Positions 1,699 through 43,690 of a stretch of DNA of 64,000 bases are shown here, one piece after another. Positions within the stretch are counted from its first letter, which is position 1, and each line of letters starts with the position of its first letter. The DNA is taken from the NCBI GenBank assembly GCA_028712175.1, contig JAQTQQ010000004.1, forward strand, positions 2,180-66,179, in the 5' to 3' direction. The position numbers and the translations under genes were made by a program. The stretch is from Candidatus Omnitrophota bacterium (lineage in GTDB: Bacteria; Omnitrophota; Gorgyraeia; Gygaellales; Profunditerraquicolaceae). The notes beneath the pieces were generated by a model, which did no database searches, was not told the DNA's origin, and saw only the letters and a list, made by a program, of their open reading frames with translations.

Positions 1699-2907
1699 TT
1701 AAAGTTTGAGATGATGCCCCATTTTTTCTTTTTTTGTTTTTAAGTACCTGTAATTCTCGCTGTTTGGCTGAATCTCCAAAGGCAGGCGCTCTAAAACCTT
1801 AAGGCCATAGCCCTCTAAGCCAATAATCTTACGCGGATTATTAGTCAATAGCCTTATCCCCTTAACCCCTAAGTCTACAAGAATCTGGGCACCGATACCA
1901 TAATCACGCAAATCAACCTTATGGCCTAATGCCTCGTTAGCTTCTACCGTATCCATACCTTTATCCTGAAGTTTATATGCGCGGATCTTTTCAACTAAAC
2001 CAATTCCGCGCCCTTCTTGTTTCATATAAAGGATAACCCCTTTCTTTTCTGCGGCGATTATCTGCATGGCTTTCTCCAGTTGCCTGCCGCAATCACAACG
2101 CAATGAACCGAAGACATCTCCGGTTAAGCATTCAGAATGTACGCGCACCAATACCGATTCATCTTTCCAGCTGCCCATACACAAAACTATATGCGTCTGA
2201 TCAGAAGTCGTATCCCTATAGATGACTAATTTAAATTCTCCGAATTTTGTCGGCAGCTTAGTTTCAACTACTGCCTCAACTAATTTTTCGCTTCTGCGGC
2301 GGTATTCTATAAGGCTGGCAATACTGCAAATCTTTAATGAGTGTTTCTTTGCAAATTCAAGAAGATTCGCAAGGCGGGCCATACTGCCATCATCATTCAT
2401 AATCTCACAAATTACCCCCGCCGGATAACATCCTGCAAGACGCATTAAATCAAGACTTGCTTCAGTATGTCCTGCCCTAACCAAAACTCCGCCGCGCCGG
2501 CAGCGCAAAGGAAAAATATGCCCTGGGCGCAGGAGGTCTTCTGGTTTAGTATCTTGGCTAATTAAAATTTCAATTGTTCTAGCCCTATCGGCAGCAGAGA
2601 TACCCGTACTTATTCCGCGCGCCGCATCAACTGAAATCATCCATGCAGTCTTAAAAGGATCTTCTTTATGGGGCTGCAGGGTATTTTTAAGCATAGGATC
2701 AAGTTCCAGAAAACGCAAGCGCTCTTCTTCCATAGGAACACAAATAAGCCCGCGTCCAAATTTAGCCATAAAATTTATATCTTCGGGCCTGACGCCTGAA
2801 GCCGCCATAACCAGATCACCTTCATTCTCACGGTCCTCATCGTCAACGACAATTACCATTTTGCCGTTTTTTAAGTCTTCTACAATTTCTGGAATTGTGT
2901 TAAACAT
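1699..2907 (-). CDS. ribBA: Bifunctional 3,4-dihydroxy-2-butanone-4-phosphate synthase / GTP cyclohydrolase II
   Basis: DHBP synthase and GTP cyclohydrolase II motifs are present (CxxGxxxC ... [10 protein letters not shown]). The start was placed at the internal ATG (MFNTIPE), which has a GGAGAG SD. The longer ORF call would run into the riboswitch terminator. Confidence 0.9.
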
Positions 2908-2961
2908 GGCTCTCCTATACCCTCCGGGTGCATCCGCGCAGATCCCTAAAACGCAGGGTAT

Positions 2962-2993
2962 TAAAAAATAAGCCCGAAATAAACTCTTCGGGC
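2962..2993 (-). terminator. Intrinsic terminator hairpin of the FMN riboswitch expression platform
   Basis: On the minus strand the sequence gcccgaagagtttatttcgggc forms a 7-bp GC-rich stem. It is followed by TTATTTTTT, and lies between the aptamer and the ribBA start. Confidence 0.6.
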
Positions 2994-3039
2994 AATTTGC
3001 TATTTTCACCAGGAATCACCGGCGAATCCGCGGCTATTT

Positions 3040-3165
3040 ACAGCGGTAATCTTCTTCCATCTGGACTTTACACCCTAACCAACTTTAAAATGGGTGCCCG
3101 TTTTATTACGGAACCATCGGCCCTGGAATTTCACCAGATCTGTCCGCCATTGAATCAGTGGCGGA
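3040..3165 (-). ncRNA. FMN riboswitch (RFN element) aptamer
   Basis: The minus strand contains GGUGAAAUUCCAGGGCCGAUGGU ... AAAGUCCAGAUGGAAGAAG. This matches the conserved RFN cores (GGUGAAAUUCC; CCGxCGGU; AAAGUCUGGAUGGGAGAAGG) and has P1 pairing AUCUGG/CCAGAU. It lies upstream of ribBA. Confidence 0.75.
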
Positions 3166-3279
3166 CTCGCGGGCTTTTACAACTTAACCATATTTTTGGT
3201 TTATTGTGCTCTACCGCCGGTAAGGATTTACACCTTGCCCTGAAGATTAACTGAAATTATTTTACCAGAGAAACTAAAC

Positions 3280-9608: not shown

Positions 9609-11687
9609 TTAAGCTGCTTCAGCCTGTTTCTTGCTTAAATTAATTCTTCCTAACTCATCTATGCCAATAACTTTAACCTTGAATTCGTCTCCGACTTTAA
9701 CAAGATCATCAATCTTCTTAACAAAAGTACTGGACAATTCAGAAACATGCACTAACCCTTCTTTACGCGGAGCTATCTCAACAAAAGCGCCAAATTGCAT
9801 AATCCGCTTAACTTTGCCGAAGTAAATTCTGCCTACCTCTACATCCTCAGTGATTGCCTTGATCATTTTAATGGCAGCAACTGATTTCTCAGCATCGATT
9901 GAGCCGACCAAGACCGTACCGTCGTCCTTTATATCTATACTCGCTCCGGTAGCGGCGATTATAGCTTTAATCGTTTTCCCTCCGGGGCCGATAAGCTCCC
10001 CGATTTTTTCAGTATTGATTTTTAAAACATCAATGCGCGGAGCAAAACTAGAAAGTTCCTCTCGCGGGGTGCCTAAAGCCATGCTCATTTTATCTAAAAT
10101 AAACAGCCTGCCTTCCTTAGATTGAGCAAGGCATTCCTTAAGCAACTCCAGGGAAATACCGTCGATCTTAAGGTCTAGCTGAACCGCGGTAACCCCTGTA
10201 CGCGTTCCGGCAACTTTAAAATCCATATCTCCAAAGTGGTCTTCCAGCCCGGCAATATCCGTAAGGATCACCGTTTTATTGCCTTCTTTAACCAAACCTA
10301 AAGCAACCCCGCCAACAGCATCCCTGATAGGAACACCAGCATCCATCAATGAAAGGGTCGCCGCACAAACCGATGCCATAGAGCTGGATCCATTAGATTC
10401 TAAAATTTCAGAAACTACCCTAATTGTATAAGGAAACTTTTCTTTTGTCGGCATCACCGCAAGCAAAGCCTTCTCTGCTAGGGCCCCATGGCCAATTTCA
10501 CGCCTACCGGGTGAACGCACAGGCCGGGTTTCACCGACGCTAAAAGAAGGAAAATTATAATGCAACATGAACGATTTCTTCTTTTCTCCGTCCAAAGCCT
10601 CTATTAGCTGTTCATCTTCACCGGTACCTAAAGTGGTTATAGCCATGCTCTGAGTTTGTCCTCGAGTAAAAAGGCTTGAGCCATGGGTACGCGGAAGCAC
10701 AGAAACTTCACATGCAATTGGGCGGATTTCTTTAAAAGAACGCCCGTCAATACGGATATTATCATCAAGGATCATTTTACGAACCTGCTTCTTTTCAACT
10801 TCATGCAACCCGGTACAAATATCAGGCGCCAAGAACCCTTCACTAGTAAGCTGCACTTCCAATTCTTTTGTCAATAAAGCCACTGCCTCTTCACGCTCTT
10901 CTTTTTTGCTTAATTTATATACTTCAGCCAATTTTTCGCGGGAAAGCAACTCAATCTTCTGCATTAGGTCTAAATCAATCAACTTAAGCTCGACATTTGC
11001 TTTAGGCTTACCATAAAGGCGGGCAAATTCATTCTGCATTTCAAGAATAGGCCTTAAGCTGTCCGCTCCGAACTGGACCGCTTCAAGGTAAATTTCTTCG
11101 GAAACTTCCTTAGCTTTTGATTCAAGCATAACTACGCCATTTTTATTACAGGCAACCACAACTTCTAAATCTGAACTTTCAATCTCGGCATAAGTAGGAT
11201 TAAGGACAAACTCATTATTTATCCTGGCTACCCGGCAGCTAACTAAGGGGCCGTTAAAAGGGATATCCGATATGGACAGGGCAGCGCTGGCGCCGATTAA
11301 TGCCAAAACATTCGGATCATTCTCTCCGTCGCTTGACAAAACGATAGCCATCACTTGGACTTCATGTAAGAATCCCTCCGGGAACAAAGGCCTTATCGGA
11401 CGATCAATAAGGCGTGAACCCAGTATTTCATTCTCAGAAGGCCTGCCTTCGCGCTTAAAGAAACCCCCGGGGATCCTTCCGGCCGCATATGTTTTCTCCT
11501 GATATTCAACAGTTAAAGGAAAAAAATCCTGCCCCTCCCTTATTTCGCGGGACATGCAAGCAGTAACTAAAATAACGGTTGATCCGTAGGTAACCGTAAC
11601 CGAACCGTTAGCCTGCTTTGCAATTTTACCTGTTTCTATGATAAGGTCATTTTTCCCAAATTTAATTTTTAAACTTTTATTCTGCAT
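9609..11687 (-). CDS. pnp: Polyribonucleotide nucleotidyltransferase (PNPase)
   Basis: 692 aa with two RNase PH domains, KH and S1 domains. Sits downstream of rpsO. Confidence 0.95.
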   Translation of the reverse strand: MQNKSLKIKFGKNDLIIETGKIAKQANGSVTVTYGSTVILVTACMSREIREGQDFFPLTVEYQEKTYAAGRIPGGFFKREGRPSENEILGSRLIDRPIRPLFPEGFLHEVQVMAIVLSSDGENDPNVLALIGASAALSISDIPFNGPLVSCRVARINNEFVLNPTYAEIESSDLEVVVACNKNGVVMLESKAKEVSEEIYLEAVQFGADSLRPILEMQNEFARLYGKPKANVELKLIDLDLMQKIELLSREKLAEVYKLSKKEEREEAVALLTKELEVQLTSEGFLAPDICTGLHEVEKKQVRKMILDDNIRIDGRSFKEIRPIACEVSVLPRTHGSSLFTRGQTQSMAITTLGTGEDEQLIEALDGEKKKSFMLHYNFPSFSVGETRPVRSPGRREIGHGALAEKALLAVMPTKEKFPYTIRVVSEILESNGSSSMASVCAATLSLMDAGVPIRDAVGGVALGLVKEGNKTVILTDIAGLEDHFGDMDFKVAGTRTGVTAVQLDLKIDGISLELLKECLAQSKEGRLFILDKMSMALGTPREELSSFAPRIDVLKINTEKIGELIGPGGKTIKAIIAATGASIDIKDDGTVLVGSIDAEKSVAAIKMIKAITEDVEVGRIYFGKVKRIMQFGAFVEIAPRKEGLVHVSELSSTFVKKIDDLVKVGDEFKVKVIGIDELGRINLSKKQAEAA

Positions 11688-14246: not shown

Positions 14247-14251
14247 TAATT

Positions 14252-14974
14252 TTAGAGGAGTAACGCTTCTTCTATTTTTGAACGGACAGTGTCTCTAAGC
14301 AGGGCAAAATCTCCAGGGCTAAACCCATCCGTTGCTACCTCCGGCAGTACTCTTACCGAAGCCGCAACCGTCGTTTTAAAAACCCAGCTACCCTTAGGAA
14401 TTGCTTCCTGCGTTCCCTTGATACAAATCGGAAGGATTGGTTTTTTCTCCTTAATTGCAAGTTTAAATGCCCCGTTCTGGTATTCGCCCATCTGATCATT
14501 GCTGCTGCGGGTGCCTTCAGGAAAAAATAATACCGACATATCTTTGTGCAGCCAATCGCTTGCCTCTTGGTAAATTTTTTTAATACTGGTAAAATCACCG
14601 CGGGTAAGCTTTATGTGTTTAATCAGGCTTAAACACCAGCCGATAAAAGGTACCTTGAATAAACTCGCTTTAGCTACCCATTTAAACTGCGCCTTAATCT
14701 GATAAAGCACCACAATATCGGCCATACTCTGATGGTTAGCGATAATAACGTAGGTTTTCTTATGATCAATATTCTTCAGGCCTTCTACTTTTACGCGCCA
14801 GAAAGGATTTAAACCGATTACGGCATCTGACCACCAAAAACACTGCCTATGGGTAACCTTCTTTTTCTTATCGAAAGGAAAAAGCAGAATGGTTAAAACC
14901 AAAACCGCAAAAAATAAGAGAATCGTCAGTAAAACACTGCCAATCCATATAAATATAGAAATAATTGCCTTCAT
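14252..14974 (-). CDS. plsC: 1-acyl-sn-glycerol-3-phosphate acyltransferase
   Basis: HxxxxD motif (NHQSMAD) and an FPEGTRS motif, with an N-terminal TM segment. Confidence 0.8.
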   Translation of the reverse strand: MKAIISIFIWIGSVLLTILLFFAVLVLTILLFPFDKKKKVTHRQCFWWSDAVIGLNPFWRVKVEGLKNIDHKKTYVIIANHQSMADIVVLYQIKAQFKWVAKASLFKVPFIGWCLSLIKHIKLTRGDFTSIKKIYQEASDWLHKDMSVLFFPEGTRSSNDQMGEYQNGAFKLAIKEKKPILPICIKGTQEAIPKGSWVFKTTVAASVRVLPEVATDGFSPGDFALLRDTVRSKIEEALLL

Positions 14975-17933: not shown

Positions 17934-17957
17934 AGTTTAATTCTTAAAAATCGGTTT

Positions 17958-18074
17958 TAGCTATTAGCTCGTAGCTATTAGCTCTTAGAAAAACATTGTT
18001 TACAGCAAAATAAGGTTAAAAGGCTAAACAGAAAACACTTGGTTTCTAGCTCTTAGCTCATAGCTAAGAGCTAA
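17958..18074. repeat. Modular intergenic palindromic repeat, copy A (heptad arm, core1, core2, inverted heptad arm)
   Basis: Left arm TAGCTAT/TAGCTCG/TAGCTAT/TAGCTCT heptads, then core1 aaaaacattgtttacagcaaaataagg, core2 aaggctaaacagaaaacacttggtttc, and a palindromic right arm agctcttagctcatagctaagagct. Copy B at 18265-18430 has a near-identical layout. Confidence 0.7.
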
Positions 18075-18264
18075 ATCCCATCAACAGTACAAACGCTGCT
18101 AATATTGCTAATATTGCAATAATGAATACAATCTTATGCTTCGGGTATCGCAACCTGCCCATGAAACCAACACTACGATTTAAGCTCTCTCCGCAGAAAA
18201 TGCAAAACAACGCCTCATCATCATATATCGGCTGTTTGCAATGGGGACATGTGTATGCGCTCAT
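18064..18264 (-). CDS. Small zinc-ribbon membrane protein (CPHC...CIFC plus C-terminal TM helix)
   Basis: 66 aa with two CxxC pairs and a hydrophobic C-terminus. There is no clear SD. The stop and last codons lie inside repeat arm R1, and the start abuts repeat copy B. Confidence 0.45.
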   Translation of the reverse strand: MSAYTCPHCKQPIYDDEALFCIFCGESLNRSVGFMGRLRYPKHKIVFIIAILAILAAFVLLMGFSS

Positions 18265-18430
18265 ATTAGCTCTTAGCTCTTAGAAAAACATTGTTTACAG
18301 CAAAATAAGGGTCGCTAGACTATAGTCGATGGTCGATAAAATCTGGCCTCCATAAATTCATGCACAAAAGGCTAAGGCAGAAAACACTCGGTTTCTAGCT
18401 TTTAGCTCATAGCTACGAGCTAAGAGCTAA
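18265..18430. repeat. Modular intergenic palindromic repeat, copy B (as copy A, plus an inserted GACTATAGTC palindrome module)
   Basis: core1 is identical to copy A (27/27) and core2 is about 90% identical. The insert is gtcgctagactatagtcgatggtcgataaaatc, carrying the perfect 10-bp palindrome GACTATAGTC. The right arm is agcttttagctcatagctacgagctaagagct. Confidence 0.7.
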
Positions 18431-18442
18431 TTATATTCTATC

Positions 18443-18470
18443 TTGACAATGCCTGAATTTCAAGTATACT
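18443..18470 (+). promoter_or_regulatory. Sigma70-type promoter TTGACA-16nt-TATACT for rpmB
   Basis: -35 TTGACA at 18443-18448 and -10 TATACT at 18465-18470. It is followed by the SD GAAGGAG and the ATG at 18499. Confidence 0.6.
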
Positions 18471-26936: not shown

Positions 26937-27547
26937 CTAGAAACCTCTTTCATGAATTCCTTTATTTTTTTATGATTTTTTTTACCGGGCTCATCTTCCA
27001 AACTGCTTGATACATCTACCCAGCCGGGTTTTAATAATTTGACTGCCCTTGCTACATTAGAAGAAGTTAAACCTCCCGATAAAAACATAATAGGAGTTAT
27101 TTTACCTAGATACGCAAGCATTTTCCAGTTAAATCTTTTCCCCGTACCGCCTAATTGATTATTCGAGAAGCTATCAAATAAATAGGCAAAGGTATTATAC
27201 TTGGATACCCCGTGGAGATCTTCTTTTCTGCTTATTCTAAAAGCCTTAATTACCTTATATCCTTTAAATTTGCGGCAATATGCTGGGGACTCCTGGCCGT
27301 GAAACTGCAGCATATCTAAATTACACTGGCTGGCAATTTTTTTTACTCTCGAAACGGGTTCATCAGCAAAAACTCCTACCCGCTTGATTTTCTTCGGTAA
27401 AATCAGGGATATCTTTCTTGCCGCGCTCGGGCTTATATAGCGCGGGCTTTTTTTATAAAAAACAAATCCTAATGCATCTGCGCCTTCAAAATAACATACA
27501 AGGGCATCTTCTAAATTAGTTACTCCGCATATTTTAACTTTTATCAT
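26933..27547 (-). CDS. trpF: Phosphoribosylanthranilate isomerase
   Basis: 204 aa beginning [10 protein letters not shown]. Confidence 0.85.
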
Positions 27548-27550
27548 CTT

Positions 27551-27680
27551 TGGCCAAAGGTCGAAAGACTAAAGTCTAAAAATTCATCTCTAGCCTAGGC
27601 TTTGTGCGCCCTTTTAGGCTTGCAACTTTAGTCTTTAAATTATACATGGTTTTCTACGATTCACGAACTAAGAACTAATT
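27551..27680. repeat. Modular intergenic palindromic repeat, copy D (long imperfect hairpin plus CGAACTA heptads abutting the trpC stop)
   Basis: Contains ggtcgaaagactaaagtc. The 11-bp inverted repeat aagactaaagt (27565-27575) / actttagtctt (27625-27635) flanks the ctagcctagg palindrome. The heptads cgattca/cgaacta/agaacta end exactly at the trpC stop codon. Confidence 0.65.
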
Positions 27681-28467
27681 ACCACCCCATAACCTGGCTT
27701 ACTTTACTTTTTATATCGTCAGACTGCATAAAAACCGTCCCGATCAAAACCGCGCTTGCCCCAAGAATCTTTAAGAATAAAACATCCTGAGAATTTTTAA
27801 TCCCGCTTTCTACAACCACTATTTTATCTTTAGGGATTAATGTAAATAATTTTTCGGTAGTCTTGAAATCAACCTCCAGTGTTTTTAAATTACGGTTATT
27901 TATCCCGATCACGGGGATTTTCAGGCTAAGTGCCTTCTTTAATTCTTTTTCATCGTGCACCTCAACCAGATAATCAAGGCCCAAACTATCGGCAATCTGC
28001 ATAAATTCCGCTAACTTTTCTTTGGTTAGGAGGCCGGCAATTAATAAAATTGCATCAGCGCCTAAGTAACGCGACTCATAAACCTGGTAGCTCTCTAAAA
28101 TAAAATCTTTCCTTAATACCGGTCCGCTAAATACATTTTTTACCTCACTTAGATAAGCGGGATTACCTGCGAAGAAATCTTCTTCGGTTAGCACAGAAAC
28201 TGCCTGAGCGCCAGCTTCCTGATAGGCCATGGCGACTTCTCTTAAATTTAAATTCTGGCGGATCACTCCCGCTGAAGGCGAAGACTGCTTAATTTCAGCA
28301 ATCAGAGCGATTTGACGCGGCTTACCGATTATTTCCCTAAACGGGCGCGTTGGCGGCAGATCTTTTAATTTCGCTTTCAGGCCATCCTCGTTTAGCTGCT
28401 GTTTGGCTAAAATAATTCTTTCCTTCTTTTTTGCGACAATCTTCTTTAAAATATCGGTTTTTACCAT
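27679..28467 (-). CDS. trpC: Indole-3-glycerol phosphate synthase
   Basis: 262 aa IGPS. Confidence 0.9.
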   Translation of the reverse strand: MVKTDILKKIVAKKKERIILAKQQLNEDGLKAKLKDLPPTRPFREIIGKPRQIALIAEIKQSSPSAGVIRQNLNLREVAMAYQEAGAQAVSVLTEEDFFAGNPAYLSEVKNVFSGPVLRKDFILESYQVYESRYLGADAILLIAGLLTKEKLAEFMQIADSLGLDYLVEVHDEKELKKALSLKIPVIGINNRNLKTLEVDFKTTEKLFTLIPKDKIVVVESGIKNSQDVLFLKILGASAVLIGTVFMQSDDIKSKVSQVMGW

Positions 28468-28473
28468 TTTTTC

Positions 28474-29478
28474 TTAAGAATACTCCTTTAATAACTGAAG
28501 TTTTTTCAATGCCTGGGCTGAATCAATTGATTCTTTTGCAAGGATTAATCCTTCGCTGATTGTTTTAGCTTTATCTGCTGCATAAATTGCACCGGCAGCG
28601 TTGAATAAAACGATATCCCGTCTCGGGCCGCTTTTTCCTGCGAGCACCTCTTGAGCTATATTGACATTGTCGGCTACCGAACCTCCTAATAAATCCTCCG
28701 GTGAGGATGTCTTTAAACCAAACTCCTGCGGAGAAATATCATATTCTTTCAATACCCCATTATTCATCTCAACAACATATGTTTTGCCGGTAGTCGTTAT
28801 CTCATCAAGGCCATCTGAACCATGAACTACTAAAATATGTTTTGAACCTAAATTATATAATACTTGCGCAAGAGGCAAAGCCCATTCCTTAGAATACACG
28901 CCGATTAATTGATTAGTTGCCCGCGCAGGATTAATCAAGGGGCCCAAAATATTAAATATGGTCTTCTGGGCAATTTGCTTCCGGGCGGGCAGCACAAAAC
29001 GCATTGCCGGATGCAGGTTTGGAGCGAACAAAAAAGCAATCCCTATCTCCTGAAGGCATTTCTTAATTTTCTCCCTATCCATATTAATATTAACGCCCAA
29101 AGCCTCTAAGATATCAGCGCTGCCGCATTTACTCGATACTGAACGGTTACCGTGTTTGGCCACCGTAACCCCGGCACCGCTTGCTACAAAAGCGGTAATT
29201 GTCGAAATATTAAAGGAACCTTTCTTGTCCCCGCCGGTTCCGCAGGTATCTAAAATGTTTGGCCGGTCGACGACAATCGGCTCAACGTATTTAAGCATTA
29301 CGTTCACGGCCGCAGTTAATTCGGCGACAGTCTGCCCCTTATCGTTTAAAGAAGTTAAAAAAGCAACAATATCCGCGGTATCAACATGCCCGCTTAAAAT
29401 CTCCCGCATTACCTGCTGCATTTGAAGATCAGTTAAATCTTTTTTATTAGCCAACTGGGCGATTAGGTCCTTGATCAT
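28474..29478 (-). CDS. trpD: Anthranilate phosphoribosyltransferase
   Basis: 334 aa with the GTGGD motif. Confidence 0.9.
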   Translation of the reverse strand: MIKDLIAQLANKKDLTDLQMQQVMREILSGHVDTADIVAFLTSLNDKGQTVAELTAAVNVMLKYVEPIVVDRPNILDTCGTGGDKKGSFNISTITAFVASGAGVTVAKHGNRSVSSKCGSADILEALGVNINMDREKIKKCLQEIGIAFLFAPNLHPAMRFVLPARKQIAQKTIFNILGPLINPARATNQLIGVYSKEWALPLAQVLYNLGSKHILVVHGSDGLDEITTTGKTYVVEMNNGVLKEYDISPQEFGLKTSSPEDLLGGSVADNVNIAQEVLAGKSGPRRDIVLFNAAGAIYAADKAKTISEGLILAKESIDSAQALKKLQLLKEYS

Positions 29479-30041
29479 TTTATTTGAATGAAATTATCTA
29501 AAATCTGTTTCCCGCTTTTAGTAAGTATTGATTCAGGATGAAACTGCACTCCCCAAATAGGATACTCTTTATGTTTTAACCCCATAATTTCATTTTCATC
29601 AGTGTAGGCGGTTATCTCAAGAGATGAAGGCAGGCTTTTTTTGTCCACTAATAACGAGTGGTAACGCGTAGCCAGAAATGGACTCGGAATATTTTTAAAG
29701 ATGTCTTTCTTATTATGATAAATCTTGGAGGTTTTTCCATGCATTAGCTTTTTTGCCTGAATGATTTTGGCTCCGAAATAATAACCTATTGCCTGATGCC
29801 CCAAACAAACCCCTAAAATAGGGATTTTCCCGAGAAAGCTGCCTATGACTTCACATGAGATACCGGCGTCTTCCGGCCTACCCGGGCCCGGAGATATAAC
29901 AATTTTTTCCGGATCAAGTTTTTTAATATCCCCGACAGTCAACGCATCATTGCGGTAGACCAGAATCTTCTCCCCTAATTCTCCCAAATACTGCACAAGG
30001 TTATAGGTGAATGAGTCGTAGTTATCAATCATTAATATCAT
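29475..30041 (-). CDS. trpG: Anthranilate synthase component II / glutamine amidotransferase (TrpG/PabA type)
   Basis: 188 aa class I GATase with catalytic Cys (GVCLGHQ) and His. Confidence 0.85.
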   Translation of the reverse strand: MILMIDNYDSFTYNLVQYLGELGEKILVYRNDALTVGDIKKLDPEKIVISPGPGRPEDAGISCEVIGSFLGKIPILGVCLGHQAIGYYFGAKIIQAKKLMHGKTSKIYHNKKDIFKNIPSPFLATRYHSLLVDKKSLPSSLEITAYTDENEIMGLKHKEYPIWGVQFHPESILTKSGKQILDNFIQIK

Positions 30042-30060
30042 TTAAATCTCCCCAAAGAAT

Positions 30061-30150
30061 GGCCGATAGACTATGGACCATAGTCGATAAAACCAGTTCC
30101 TAACTCTTGACTCGCAGCCCGTAGGAAAACCTACGAACTAAGAACTTATT
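30061..30150. repeat. Modular intergenic palindromic repeat, copy C (GACTATGG-a-CCATAGTC module, hairpin, and CGAACTA heptads abutting the murA stop)
   Basis: ggccgatagactatggaccatagtcgataaaacc is a homolog of the copy B insert. It is followed by the cgtaggaaaacctacg hairpin and the heptads acgaact/aagaact, which end at the murA stop codon. Confidence 0.65.
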
Positions 30151-31408
30151 CTTTTTCTCTCCACACCTTCGCGCCTAAGTTAATTAATTTATCCTCGATA
30201 AACTCATAACCGCGCTCTAAATGATAAATCCTTGAAATAGAAGTTTTGCCGCGTGCGGCTAGGCCGGCTAAAACTAAACCTGCTGAGGCACGCAAATCGC
30301 TTGCCATAACCGGAGCACCGCTTAAATTCCTCACCCCTTCTACTATTGCATGCGGCCCCTCTCTTTGAATATGGGCCCCCATACGGTTAAGCTCGGACAC
30401 ATGCATAAACCTGTCGGGATAGATTTTCTCGGTGATCACACTTATGCCTTCGGCAACCGACATCAGGCTCATTATCTGCGCCTGCATATCCGTAGGGAAT
30501 CCCGGATAGGGAAGCGTAGTAATATTAATCGCCTTTAGCCTTTTATTACCCTTAACACGCAAAGATCCCTCGCTGCGCTTAATGTGGGCGCCGGCTTCAT
30601 CTAATTTGTCAAGTAAAGCACCCAAATGTTGATATTGGATATTTTTAATTAAGACATCCCCCGCGGTGATTAGCGCGGCTAAAATCAATGTGCCTGCTTC
30701 AATGCGGTCAGAAATTATCGAATGCATTGCGCCGTGCAAATGCTTCACGCCTTCGATTTCAATTACCGGAGTGCCATGACCTTTAATCTTAGCGCCCATC
30801 TTAATCAAAAATTCCGCTAAATCCACCACTTCCGGCTCACAAGCCGCAGACTCTATTACGGTCTTGCCGTTAGCTAAAACCGCAGCCATCATGACATTAT
30901 CAGTAGCTAAGACCGAAGAACCATAAACCCCGCCTAAATAGATATAGGCGCCGCGCAATTTATTAGCTTTAGCCACCACATAACCCGAATCAATGCTAAT
31001 ATCGGCACCCAAGGCCTTGATGCCTTTTAAATGCAGGTCAACGGGGCGCACTCCGATGATGCATCCTCCTGGGAGAGAAACTTTTGCTTTTTTTAATTTA
31101 CCTAAAAGCGGCCCCAAAACACAGAATGAAGCGCGCATAGTAGAAACCAGTTTGTATTCGGCAATGTAATTTTCCGCTTTGCCCGAACAAATACTAACCC
31201 TGCCTTTGTCAAACTCGGCAATTTTACCCAATGAGCGCAAAATTTTAAGCATACTATTAGTATCCCGCAGGCATGGCACGCCCTTAATAACGCATGGCTC
31301 ATTAGTAAGCAGGGTTGCTGCCAGTATCGGTAACACTGCATTCTTTGCCCCGGAGGCCGTAACCTCTCCCTGTAATCTTGCCCCGCCTTCAATAATTAAT
31401 TTATCCAT
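30146..31408 (-). CDS. murA: UDP-N-acetylglucosamine 1-carboxyvinyltransferase
   Basis: 420 aa EPT fold with a conserved active-site Cys region. Confidence 0.95.
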   Translation of the reverse strand: MDKLIIEGGARLQGEVTASGAKNAVLPILAATLLTNEPCVIKGVPCLRDTNSMLKILRSLGKIAEFDKGRVSICSGKAENYIAEYKLVSTMRASFCVLGPLLGKLKKAKVSLPGGCIIGVRPVDLHLKGIKALGADISIDSGYVVAKANKLRGAYIYLGGVYGSSVLATDNVMMAAVLANGKTVIESAACEPEVVDLAEFLIKMGAKIKGHGTPVIEIEGVKHLHGAMHSIISDRIEAGTLILAALITAGDVLIKNIQYQHLGALLDKLDEAGAHIKRSEGSLRVKGNKRLKAINITTLPYPGFPTDMQAQIMSLMSVAEGISVITEKIYPDRFMHVSELNRMGAHIQREGPHAIVEGVRNLSGAPVMASDLRASAGLVLAGLAARGKTSISRIYHLERGYEFIEDKLINLGAKVWREKE

Positions 31409-43591: not shown

Positions 43592-43605
43592 GTTTTCTTA
43601 GATTA

Positions 43606-43690
43606 AGGGTTGATAACCTATGGGCGATGGCCGAGAAAACCGAAGGTTTTATGAACTTTGCCTATAGTCTTTCGACCAATAAATTATTCC
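43606..43690. repeat. Modular intergenic palindromic repeat, copy E (inverted orientation)
   Basis: The reverse complement ggtcgaaagactatagg matches the copy B/C/D modules. There is also an aaaacc-gaa-ggtttt hairpin at 43636-43650. Confidence 0.55.

What the first reader, a model, noticed from the sequence alone, without database searches (positions are those of the whole stretch)
30042..30150. Repeat copy C in the murA-trpG spacer, which is the trp operon leader region
It contains ggccgatagACTATGGaCCATAGTcgataaaacc, a near-perfect 17-bp palindrome homologous to the copy B insert. A cgtagg-aaaa-cctacg hairpin and the heptads acgaact/aagaact follow, abutting the murA stop. It occupies the position where a trp regulatory leader would normally be. 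The symmetric GACTATRG module could be a protein-binding operator that the element has spread to several operons.
Basis: partly seen in the sequence, partly recalled or inferred. Interest (0 to 1): 0.55.

Follow-up and report, generated by a model that had tools for sequence, protein, structure and literature searches.

The report
Orphan heptad-repeat insertion, not a trp leader
The 104-base spacer between murA and trpG is a recent insertion of a small repeated element built from 7-base units. It is not a tryptophan regulatory leader, but the same 7-base units bracket genes for "23S rRNA intervening-sequence" proteins, which hints at what this poorly understood class of repeats belongs to.

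Summary
The sequence features are all real: the palindrome GACTATGG-a-CCATAGTC (30069-30085), the cgtagg-aaaa-cctacg hairpin and the heptads next to the murA stop. The interpretation as a trp leader or operator fails. Five relatives with MurA 86-93% identical keep the gene order prfA-prmC-murA-trpG-trpD-trpC-trpF, but murA and trpG overlap by 4 nt (ATGA) and there is no spacer. The spacer is therefore a lineage-specific insertion. A second insertion with the same 5' end (GTTCTTAGTTCGT) and the same 3' block splits trpC/trpF.

The palindrome is a by-product of a 32-nt block of four 7-nt units (consensus TTTTATCGAC-TATCGAC-TATAGTC-TATCGACC). At least 9 copies of this block occur in about 78 kb sampled from this genome. 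They lie in both orientations and only between genes (hisD/hisB, upstream of a GH57 glycoside-hydrolase gene, folD/metF). It also occurs between tRNA genes and upstream of dnaE in two other contigs, at least one from another Omnitrophota genome.

In this clade the same heptads bracket PF05635 (23S-rRNA-IVS, four-helix-bundle) genes. In 10 of 17 unrelated viral-contig loci such genes sit between inverted heptad arrays, against 6 of 93 neighbouring ORFs. Copy C is an ORF-less orphan of that repeat class. Its function is probably nil, or limited to effects on the mRNA.

The parts
30042..30145 (-). Whole murA-trpG spacer, called element C here. It is a lineage-specific insertion of about 105 nt.
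   Evidence: It is absent in relatives L018-L025 and in the P0003 contig, where murA and trpG overlap by 4 nt. It is identical apart from 1 SNP in 4 assemblies of this strain.
30146..30148 (-). murA stop codon TAA. The T is ancestral (from ..gaATGA..) and the AA comes from the insertion.
   Evidence: Junction comparison with relatives.
30133..30145 (-). 5' end of the element, GTTCTTAGTTCGT (heptads AGTTCTT/AGTTCGT). The identical 13-mer starts element D.
   Evidence: The only two exact matches in the window are 30133-30145 and 27663-27675, both directly after a stop codon.
30095..30146 (-). 5' stem-loop domain. The outer stem is AGUUCU/AGGAACU and the inner hairpin has 11 bp with a UUUU loop. 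There is no U-tract after it.
   Evidence: RNA fold gives -18.9 kcal/mol, z -3.45, with 0 of 200 shuffles as stable. It is not a terminator by the consensus scan.
30120..30135 (.).
   Evidence: Read directly from the sequence. It is part of the fold.
30061..30094 (-). Heptad block: GG-TTTTATCGAC-TATGGTC-CATAGTC-TATCGGCC, four 7-nt units.
   Evidence: nhmmer profile E 6e-9; alignment of 13 copies; matches the (YRTNGDC)x3 test.
30069..30085 (.). 17-bp palindrome GACTATGG-N-CCATAGTC, formed by the junction of oppositely oriented heptads. In this copy three substitutions relative to the consensus extend it.
   Evidence: The RNA hairpin folds at -10.1 kcal/mol, z -2.58.
30048..30053 (-). Shine-Dalgarno GGGGAG, 6 nt before the trpG ATG. 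It is supplied by the insertion.
   Evidence: Sequence. Relatives have no separate SD because the genes overlap.
27548..27678 (-). Element D, a sister insertion between trpC and trpF. It has the same 5' 13-mer and a truncated heptad block (27559-27582), and it supplies a new ATG for trpF.
   Evidence: Relatives have a 7-nt overlap, a 2-nt gap or an unrelated 73-nt spacer at this junction. Motif hits come, and a weak profile hit (E 0.33).
18310..18341 (-). Heptad block inside copy B. It lies within an insert of about 53 nt relative to copy A.
43605..43677 (.). Element E, two diverged heptad blocks in inverted orientation 7 nt apart (3 nt if each block's flanking GG is counted), between folD and metF.
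   Evidence: nhmmer hits at 43647-43677(+) and 43605-43639(-). The pair folds only partially, z -1.75.

Best explanation
The murA-trpG spacer is a recent, lineage-specific insertion of an ORF-less composite member of a dispersed intergenic repeat family built from tandem 7-nt units.

It has two parts. The first is a 5' stem-loop bounded by AGTTCKT heptads. The second is a 3' block of four heptads (TTTTATCGAC-TATGGTC-CATAGTC-TATCGGCC). The 17-bp palindrome is not a designed operator. It arises where a GAC-TAT unit meets an ATA-GTC unit, and three substitutions have lengthened it in this copy.

In this Omnitrophota clade the same heptads bracket genes for PF05635 (23S rRNA intervening-sequence / four-helix-bundle) proteins. 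Copy C is an orphan of that repeat class.

Shown: the insertion landed on the ATGA stop/start overlap. It broke murA-trpG translational coupling, completed a TAA stop for murA and brought a GGGGAG ribosome-binding site for trpG.

Inferred: the element is selfish or neutral DNA spread by an unidentified mechanism. Its only likely activity is on the polycistronic mRNA, where its two hairpins could act as stability or processing determinants.
For: 1. Presence/absence. Four DNA-level relatives (MurA 86-91% identical) and the gene coordinates of a 93% relative all show a murA/trpG ATGA overlap with otherwise conserved synteny.
2. A second insertion at trpC/trpF shares the exact 13-mer 5' end and the 3' block.
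3. Possible 3-nt duplications flank both insertions: AAT for C and TAA for D.
4. The family is dispersed. There are 5 block copies at 4 sites in the window, plus 5 more in L015 and L017. Shared NCBI accession series place those two loci in the same organism. Further copies lie in an Omnitrophota MAG (L010) and in the taxonomically unassigned contigs L014/L016. The copies are in both orientations and every one is intergenic, although only about 5% of the window is intergenic.
5. No copy appears in about 85 kb of non-redundant syntenic DNA from relatives.
6. Heptad substructure.
7. The same heptads flank PF05635 genes in L015, L037-L043, L027-L036 and L044-L047.
8. No Rfam family, promoter or terminator is found in the spacer.
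9. The window holds only housekeeping genes, no transposase and no PF05635 gene.
Against: The mobility mechanism is unknown. Element C has no terminal inverted repeats, and the 3-nt duplications are short enough to be chance. No transposase or RAYT was found, though only about 64 kb of the genome could be examined.

Genome-wide copy number could not be measured because the source genome is not in the two scannable collections.

Three substitutions that lengthen the palindrome in copy C, and the significantly stable 5' hairpin (z -3.45), could reflect selection for a structure, that is, some domesticated function.
Confidence: 0.75

Rival explanations
1. The block, or the whole element, has been domesticated as a cis-acting RNA element. 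In the murA-trpG transcript its hairpins would serve as an RNase III/E processing site, a 3' stabiliser of the murA segment, or a translation-initiation context for trpG. This would uncouple expression of the trp genes from murA.
For: - The 5' domain folds at z -3.45 and the block hairpin at z -2.58.
- G-U pairs in the outer stem work only on the sense strand.
- Heptad blocks often abut start codons that lack an SD: L015, L037 and L044. TAACTGA repeats in Beggiatoaceae behave the same way (PMC4679880).
- IVS stems built of heptads are RNase III substrates in Coxiella (PMC4990558).
Against: Copies occur antisense to the flanking genes, for example both copies in L017 (hisD/hisB). Weaker copies do not fold better than shuffles. 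Close relatives manage without the spacer. No covariation test was possible with so few copies.
Confidence: 0.12
2. The palindrome would be an operator for a dimeric DNA-binding regulator that the element has carried to several operons, including trp.
For: The 8+1+8 palindrome is perfect. A GACTATAGTC or longer centre is present in about 7 of 13 copies. Most strong copies lie upstream of a gene and point the same way.
Against: - No promoter-like site is present for an operator to control.
- The site lies between genes that are translationally coupled in relatives.
- Copies occur in both orientations and beside functionally unrelated genes such as tRNAs, dnaE, a GH57 glycoside-hydrolase gene, hisD/hisB and folD/metF.
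- The palindrome is absent in copies E2, L017b, L014b and D.
- The invariant features are direct 7-nt repeats, not dyad symmetry.
Confidence: 0.06
3. The insertion carries an outward-facing promoter that now drives trpGDC independently of murA, and element D does the same for trpFBA.
For: Element D contains TGTATAAT (sequence). In L014, L015, L017 and L010 a -10-like hexamer lies 4-10 nt upstream of the block. Copy B starts right after a TTGAAA-17-TAGAAT site.
Against: Element C itself has no hexamer pair that passes even the relaxed scan. The -10-like hexamers of the other copies lie outside the conserved block. Omnitrophota promoter rules are unknown.
Confidence: 0.05

Closest known systems
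23S rRNA intervening sequences carrying an S23p / PF05635 ORF (Coxiella burnetii, Leptospira, Salmonella-type IVS)
   Same: The termini are built of tandem heptamers that form a stem of about 28 bp; in Coxiella this is GACAGAT x3-4 plus a 28-bp stem cut by RNase III (PMC4990558). In the source genome a PF05635 gene (L015) lies between inverted copies of the very block found in copy C. They are regarded as selfish elements with an unknown means of movement.
   Different: Copy C has no ORF and no inverted partner, and it lies in an mRNA spacer rather than in rRNA. RNase III cleavage is untested.
Intergenic heptamer repeat families: Xanthomonas GGGAATC, Nostoc/Anabaena STRR (GGGGA(C/T)T), Beggiatoaceae TAACTGA
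   Same: They have 7-nt units in 2-6 copies and a strong intergenic bias. They occur as single arrays or as convergent pairs, often right at start codons, and their function is unknown (PMC4692102, PMC4679880).
   Different: The unit here is YATMGAC/TATAGTC and it is degenerate. The block has fixed ends (TTTTATCGAC...TATCGRCC). The phylum is new, and the link to PF05635 genes is not mentioned in those papers.
REP / BIME / REPIN elements
   Same: They are imperfect palindromes of about 35 nt, extragenic, lying inside operons just after stop codons, as singles and as inverted pairs. Their hairpins can stabilise upstream mRNA (own knowledge of the family).
   Different: The heptad substructure differs. 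No RAYT transposase was found in the DNA examined, and a copy number in the hundreds has not been shown.
MITEs such as Correia (Neisseria) and ERIC
   Same: They are ORF-less insertions of about 100-135 nt, polymorphic between relatives, co-transcribed with flanking genes, and able to donate expression signals. Short A/T-rich flanking duplications are possible.
   Different: Elements C and D lack terminal inverted repeats, and no cognate transposase is known.
trp leaders: attenuator peptide, T-box, TRAP site, TrpR operator
   Same: The only shared feature is the position immediately upstream of the first trp gene in the cluster.
   Different: There are no tandem Trp codons, no terminator/antiterminator, no T-box and no regular (G/U)AG array. 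The spacer is absent from relatives, and the same element occurs at non-trp loci.

Membership tests
Ribosome-mediated trp attenuator | A short leader ORF with an SD and consecutive Trp codons. | tested here: not met
   The only ATG-initiated ORF seen in the spacer is MVHSLSAILWGDLNDIND. It has one Trp, no SD and overlaps the trpG start out of frame.
Ribosome-mediated trp attenuator | Alternative terminator/antiterminator hairpins with a U-tract. | tested here: not met
   No terminator-like site lies in 30042-30145. Neither hairpin is followed by a U run.
Any trp leader | Conserved upstream of the first trp gene in related genomes. | tested here: not met
   murA/trpG overlap ATGA in L018-L025 and in the P0003 contig.
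T-box riboswitch | A match to the Rfam T-box covariance model. | tested here: not met
   There are no Rfam hits at the gathering threshold in the window apart from FMN, and none at E<=5 in 27400-30300.
TRAP binding site | 9-11 (G/U)AG triplets separated by 2-3 nt. | tested here: not met
   By reading the sequence, there are 7 irregularly spaced UAG/GAG triplets. The only regular spacing is 4 nt, over 2-3 triplets.
TrpR-type operator | A palindrome that overlaps the promoter of a trp transcription unit. | tested here: not met
   No promoter-like site is present. The palindrome family also occurs at non-trp loci.
REP / REPIN | A short imperfect palindrome, strictly extragenic, occurring as singles and inverted pairs. 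| tested here: met
   All copies are intergenic. Inverted pairs are seen in element E and in L014. Hairpins are predicted for 6-7 of 12 copies.
REP / REPIN | A cognate RAYT (Y1 transposase) gene flanked by REPs, with tens to hundreds of copies per genome. | not testable with these tools
   The source genome is absent from the scannable collections. No transposase was found in the window.
MITE | Terminal inverted repeats. | tested here: not met
   The ends of C (AAGTTCTTAG... / ...GGGGAGATTTA) and of D are not complementary (sequence). Copies A and B do have inverted heptad-array ends.
MITE | Target-site duplication and insertion polymorphism. | tested here: inconclusive
   The polymorphism is clear. 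The flanking AAT (C) and TAA (D) repeats are only 3 nt long.
Intergenic heptamer tandem repeats (STRR-like) | At least 3 tandem 7-nt units of one consensus, intergenic, single or as convergent pairs. | tested here: met
   (YRTNGDC)x3 matches 30062-30089 and 18318-18338, and only intergenic sites in the same-genome and other repeat-bearing loci. It matches none in 85 kb of relatives.
IVS-type PF05635 cassette | A PF05635 ORF enclosed by inverted repeat arms that form a stem of about 25-35 bp. | tested here: not met
   There is no PF05635 ORF in the window, and copy C has a single arm. The feature is met elsewhere in the same genome at L015.
IVS-type PF05635 cassette | Excision or cleavage of the stem by RNase III. 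| not testable with these tools
   This requires an RNA end-mapping or in vitro assay.

The most novel reading that the evidence does not exclude
Tandem-heptamer arrays would be the cis-acting ends of a widespread cassette built around PF05635 (S23p / Avd-like four-helix-bundle, pentameric) proteins. ORF-less orphans such as copy C would be its dispersed footprints or copies mobilised in trans.

On this reading the protein recognises or propagates the heptads. That would tie together 23S rRNA intervening sequences, cyanobacterial STRR repeats, Xanthomonas GGGAATC repeats and these Omnitrophota blocks.

Evidence so far:
- 10 of 17 distinct viral-contig PF05635 genes lie between mutually reverse-complementary period-7 arrays whose sequence differs from locus to locus, against 6 of 93 neighbouring ORFs (Fisher p 2e-6).
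- 3 Omnitrophota loci show the same arrangement.
- The Coxiella IVS has GACAGAT heptads before the S23p ATG (PMC4990558).
- Xanthomonas XCC0516, the PDB 2GSC protein that matches the PF05635 profile at E 3e-30, has a 4-unit GGGAATC array overlapping its start codon (supplement of PMC4692102).
Probability: 0.35. Interest if true: 0.75.

Novelty: new member of a known kind. Interest (0 to 1): 0.42.

Why it matters
For the trp genes it matters little. Annotators should not call this spacer a leader, and the operon here is simply interrupted by two selfish insertions that happen to supply a stop codon, an SD and a start codon.

The wider value is as an entry point. Intergenic heptamer repeats (STRR, GGGAATC, TAACTGA) and the PF05635 "23S IVS protein" family have both lacked a function for decades. 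The physical association seen here across several phyla gives a concrete, testable hypothesis: the protein binds or propagates the heptads, and paired arrays are RNase III-type stems. It also gives a clean natural before/after pair, because relatives preserve the empty murA|trpG site.

Tried and rejected
- Collection scans. The genome contigs and metagenome-contig scans with TTTTAT-N(8-11)-CYWTAGTCTWNCGRCC returned only 9 and 4 stretches. The source genome is in neither collection, so genome-wide enrichment could not be measured. The strict pattern has no hit in viral contigs.
- Extending the source contig. Exact-protein look-ups failed or gave a 2-kb contig. The closest relative, P0003, had no DNA on file and only gene coordinates.
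- Rfam. Only the FMN riboswitch was found, and nothing in the trp spacers even at E<=5.
- Promoter and terminator scan. Nothing was found in either trp spacer.
- Whole-spacer fold. It is not significant (z -1.47); only the two sub-domains are.
- Element E as a perfect hairpin. Rejected, because the arms have diverged and pair only partly.
- DnaA-box, ECF-sigma, SARP and HutP/TRAP resemblances. Considered by eye and dropped because spacing or consensus does not fit.
- TATCGAC arrays in viral contigs. They are common (45 stretches) but none is next to a PF05635 gene in the DNA held. Heptad arrays therefore also exist without that gene.
- Literature. No description of Omnitrophota repeats was found, nor of a general link between PF05635 and heptamers.

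Full report
**What is there.**
The window comes from an Omnitrophota MAG (GCA_028718085.1, contig JAQUMO010000004.1). Nearly all genes are on the minus strand. Around the finding the order is prfA, prmC, murA (30146-31408), a 104-nt spacer (30042-30145), trpG (29475-30041), trpD, trpC (27679-28467), a 131-nt spacer (27548-27678), trpF, trpB, trpA. No trpE lies next to trpG.

- the palindrome GACTATGG-a-CCATAGTC at 30069-30085 (none in 100 shuffles);
- the hairpin cgtagg-aaaa-cctacg at 30120-30135;
- the heptads acgaact/aagaact touching the murA stop.

The similarity to the insert in copy B is also real.

**The spacer is an insertion, not a leader.**
MurA homologues 86-93% identical are abundant in Omnitrophota metagenomes. 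I fetched four distinct relatives as DNA (L018/L019, L020/L021, L022/L023, L024/L025). All keep the order prfA-prmC-murA-trpG-trpD-trpC-trpF-(ORF)-trpB-trpA. In all of them murA and trpG overlap by 4 nt...GAAAAAGAATGATCTTAATGAT.... The closest relative (93%) had no DNA on file, but its gene coordinates show the same 4-nt overlap.

In the window the same junction reads ...GAAAAAGAAT-AAGTTCTT...GAGATTTA-AATGATATTAATGAT... Roughly 105 nt have been inserted into the ATGA overlap. The insertion completes a TAA stop for murA and supplies GGGGAG 6 nt before the trpG ATG. An AAT trinucleotide is present on both sides.

The trpC/trpF junction tells the same story. Relatives have a 7-nt overlap, a 2-nt gap or an unrelated 73-nt spacer. 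The window has a 131-nt spacer flanked by TAA...TAA, and trpF now starts at an ATG supplied by the insert.

The two insertions begin with the same 13-mer, GTTCTTAGTTCGT. Its only two exact occurrences in the window are these, each directly after a stop codon. Both insertions end with the same block.

Four independent assemblies of the strain carry the murA-trpG spacer with one SNP. Precise loss restoring ATGA in every relative is far less likely than a single gain.

**Tests for a trp leader are negative.**
- There is no Rfam match in the trp spacers even at E<=5. The only family in the window is an FMN riboswitch at 3045-3251.
- There is no promoter-like or terminator-like site in either trp spacer.
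- The only ATG-initiated ORF seen in the spacer has 18 codons, one Trp and no SD.

**What the palindrome really is.**
Aligning all copies gives a 32-nt block with the consensus TTTTATCGAC-TATCGAC-TATAGTC-TATCGACC. It consists of four tandem 7-nt units of the form Y-A-T-M-G-A/T-C with fixed ends. A palindrome appears wherever a ...GAC TAT unit is followed by ATA GTC.
- Most copies have GACTATAGTC.
- L014 has a perfect 16-mer.
- Copy C has three substitutions (TATGGTC, CATAGTC) that give 8+1+8.
- Four copies (E2, L017b, L014b, D) have no usable palindrome and fold no better than shuffles.

The 5' half of the spacer is a separate sub-module. It forms a stem-loop bounded by AGTTCKT heptads at -18.9 kcal/mol, z -3.45. 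The block hairpin gives z -2.58. The whole spacer is not significant (z -1.47).

**Distribution.**
Five block copies lie at four sites in the window, all intergenic:
- copy B at 18310-18341;
- D at 27559-27582;
- C at 30061-30092;
- E, an inverted pair at 43605-43677 between folD and metF.

These rest.

The public-collection scans missed the source genome but returned relatives.
- L015 and L017 belong to a 321-kb contig of the same organism, as shown by shared NCBI accession series. They add five copies. One lies between hisD and hisB, antisense to both genes. Two lie in tandem after a terminator. One abuts the ATG of a GH57 gene.
- L010, another Omnitrophota MAG, has one copy upstream of dnaE.
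- L014/L016 has an inverted pair between tRNA genes.

A three-heptad regular expression hits only intergenic DNA in the same-genome and other repeat-bearing loci. It hits nothing in 85 kb of syntenic DNA from relatives.

Orientation relative to neighbouring genes is mixed, which argues against a sense-strand RNA signal or a promoter as the primary identity. The window contains only housekeeping genes and no transposase.

**Link to 23S-rRNA-IVS proteins.**
In L015 the two reversed blocks and the forward block enclose a 118-aa ORF that matches PF05635 (23S_rRNA_IVP, E 2.8e-38). Close homologues are common in Omnitrophota.
- At the orthologous locus in relatives (L037-L043), the gene is preceded by a long array of the same heptads (CATAGAC TATCGAC CATCGAC TATAGGC...). 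The copy number differs between assemblies. The gene is followed by two tandem blocks.
- A paralogue in a mobile/defence island (L027-L036) has the heptads on both sides.
- A more distant Omnitrophota genome (L044-L047) has a related heptad set and a 97-nt unit that varies in copy number.

The Coxiella 23S IVS also carries an S23p ORF. It has a 28-bp terminal stem cut by RNase III and 3-4 tandem GACAGAT heptads before the ATG (PMC4990558).

I then fetched 23 PF05635 loci from viral contigs.
- Tandem Repeats Finder shows that the gene is usually preceded by a 4-5-copy period-7 array and followed by its reverse complement. The heptad differs from locus to locus, for example TTGGGAA/TTCCCAA, AGAAGGC/CCTTCTG, ACGTTAC/TGTAACG and AGAGTGG/CACTCTC.
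- Of 17 distinct loci, 10 are flanked in this way, against 6 of 93 other ORFs in the same DNA (Fisher p 2e-6). Fifteen of the 17 have at least one adjacent array.
- Duplex energies are far below shuffled controls, for example -76 vs -34 and -64 vs -21.5 kcal/mol.
- The same loci also hold ORF-less inverted array pairs.
- The PF05635 profile matches PDB 2GSC (Xanthomonas XCC0516) at E 3e-30. In the published table of Xanthomonas GGGAATC heptamer repeats, a 4-unit array overlaps the XCC0516 start codon (PMC4692102 supplement).

Heptad arrays also exist without such genes: TATCGAC arrays occur in 45 viral stretches with no PF05635 ORF in the DNA held.

**Mechanism, with the status of each step.**
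- Shown: copies C and D are insertions. They belong to a dispersed, strictly intergenic, heptad-built repeat family. That family's units bracket PF05635 genes. The insertion supplied a stop codon, an SD (C) and a start codon (D).
- Inferred: the family spreads as selfish DNA by an unknown route. Paired arrays form RNase III-type stems in transcripts, as in rRNA IVSs. A solo arm such as C has at most a modest effect on the murA-trpG mRNA through its two hairpins.
- Not supported: any role in sensing tryptophan.

**Comparison and novelty.**
The element works most like REP/MITE-type extragenic repeats. It also resembles the intergenic heptamer repeats of Xanthomonas, Nostoc and Beggiatoaceae (PMC4692102, PMC4679880). 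Its nearest structural relatives are the heptamer-stemmed 23S IVS cassettes.

It fails membership of every trp-leader class. It also fails the MITE criterion of terminal inverted repeats, and its REP/RAYT membership cannot be tested here.

I file it as a new member of a known kind, namely bacterial interspersed heptamer repeats, here in Omnitrophota.

The general PF05635-heptad association did not turn up in the literature searches. It is the most novel reading left open.

**Verdict.**
Taken alone, the finding is an ordinary selfish insertion. Its interest comes from the wider pattern it exposes.

Noticed in passing
window 27548-27678 (-): A second insertion, element D, lies between trpC and trpF. 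It has the same 5' 13-mer, contains TGTATAAT and an inverted pair AAAGACTAAAGT/ACTTTAGTCTTT, and provides a new ATG for trpF. Relatives have overlapping genes at this junction.
   Followed up: partly
window 17950-18440: Copies A and B are elements bounded by inverted arrays of TAGCTCT-type heptads; the ends of copy B form a 15-bp stem (z -2.13). They flank a 66-aa Zn-ribbon/TM ORF (18064-18264) with no Pfam hit. Divergent promoter-like sites at 18443-18470(+) for rpmB and 18463-18435(-) start right at the array.
   Followed up: partly
window 43605-43677: An inverted pair of diverged heptad blocks lies between folD and metF, just upstream of the CODH/ACS gene. It folds only partially.
   Followed up: partly
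L093-L115 (viral contigs): PF05635 four-helix-bundle genes are typically enclosed by mutually reverse-complementary arrays of 4-5 heptamers, and the heptamer sequence differs at every locus. Two loci use period 8 or 11 instead. ORF-less inverted array pairs occur nearby.
   Followed up: yes
L037, L038, L042 upstream of the PF05635 gene; L044 vs L045 at 10360-10690: Heptad copy number varies between assemblies of the same locus. A 97-nt unit made of forward and reverse blocks, next to a tRNA gene, is present twice in L044 and once in L045.
   Followed up: no
L048-L092 (viral contigs): Many phage-like contigs carry (TATCGAC)n or (CATCGAC)n arrays. These are often followed by TATGAAAC and a GC-rich hairpin, or by a second heptad array (GAGCGGT). 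None is next to a PF05635 gene in the DNA held.
   Followed up: partly
L020, L022, L024 about 14250-14655 vs the window: Several relatives have a 117-aa ORF (weak Zn_ribbon_3 hit) between trpF and trpB. It is absent from the window and from L018. The trp cluster has no trpE next to trpG in any of these genomes.
   Followed up: no
window 3045-3251 (-): An FMN riboswitch (RF00050, 90.7 bits) lies upstream of ribBA (1699-3009) and ribH.
   Followed up: no
L017 4822-4941: The hisD-hisB spacer of the same genome starts, like C and D, with TAA-GCTCGTAG. It also shares CAGCCCGTAG(G)AAAACC with copy C, but on the opposite strand and in a different order. The elements are therefore mosaics of sub-modules.
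   Followed up: partly
PMC4692102 supplement, Xanthomonas campestris 622956-622983: Published GGGAATC heptamer repeat #15 (4 units) overlaps the start codon of XCC0516, the PF05635-family protein crystallised as PDB 2GSC. The paper does not comment on this.
   Followed up: partly
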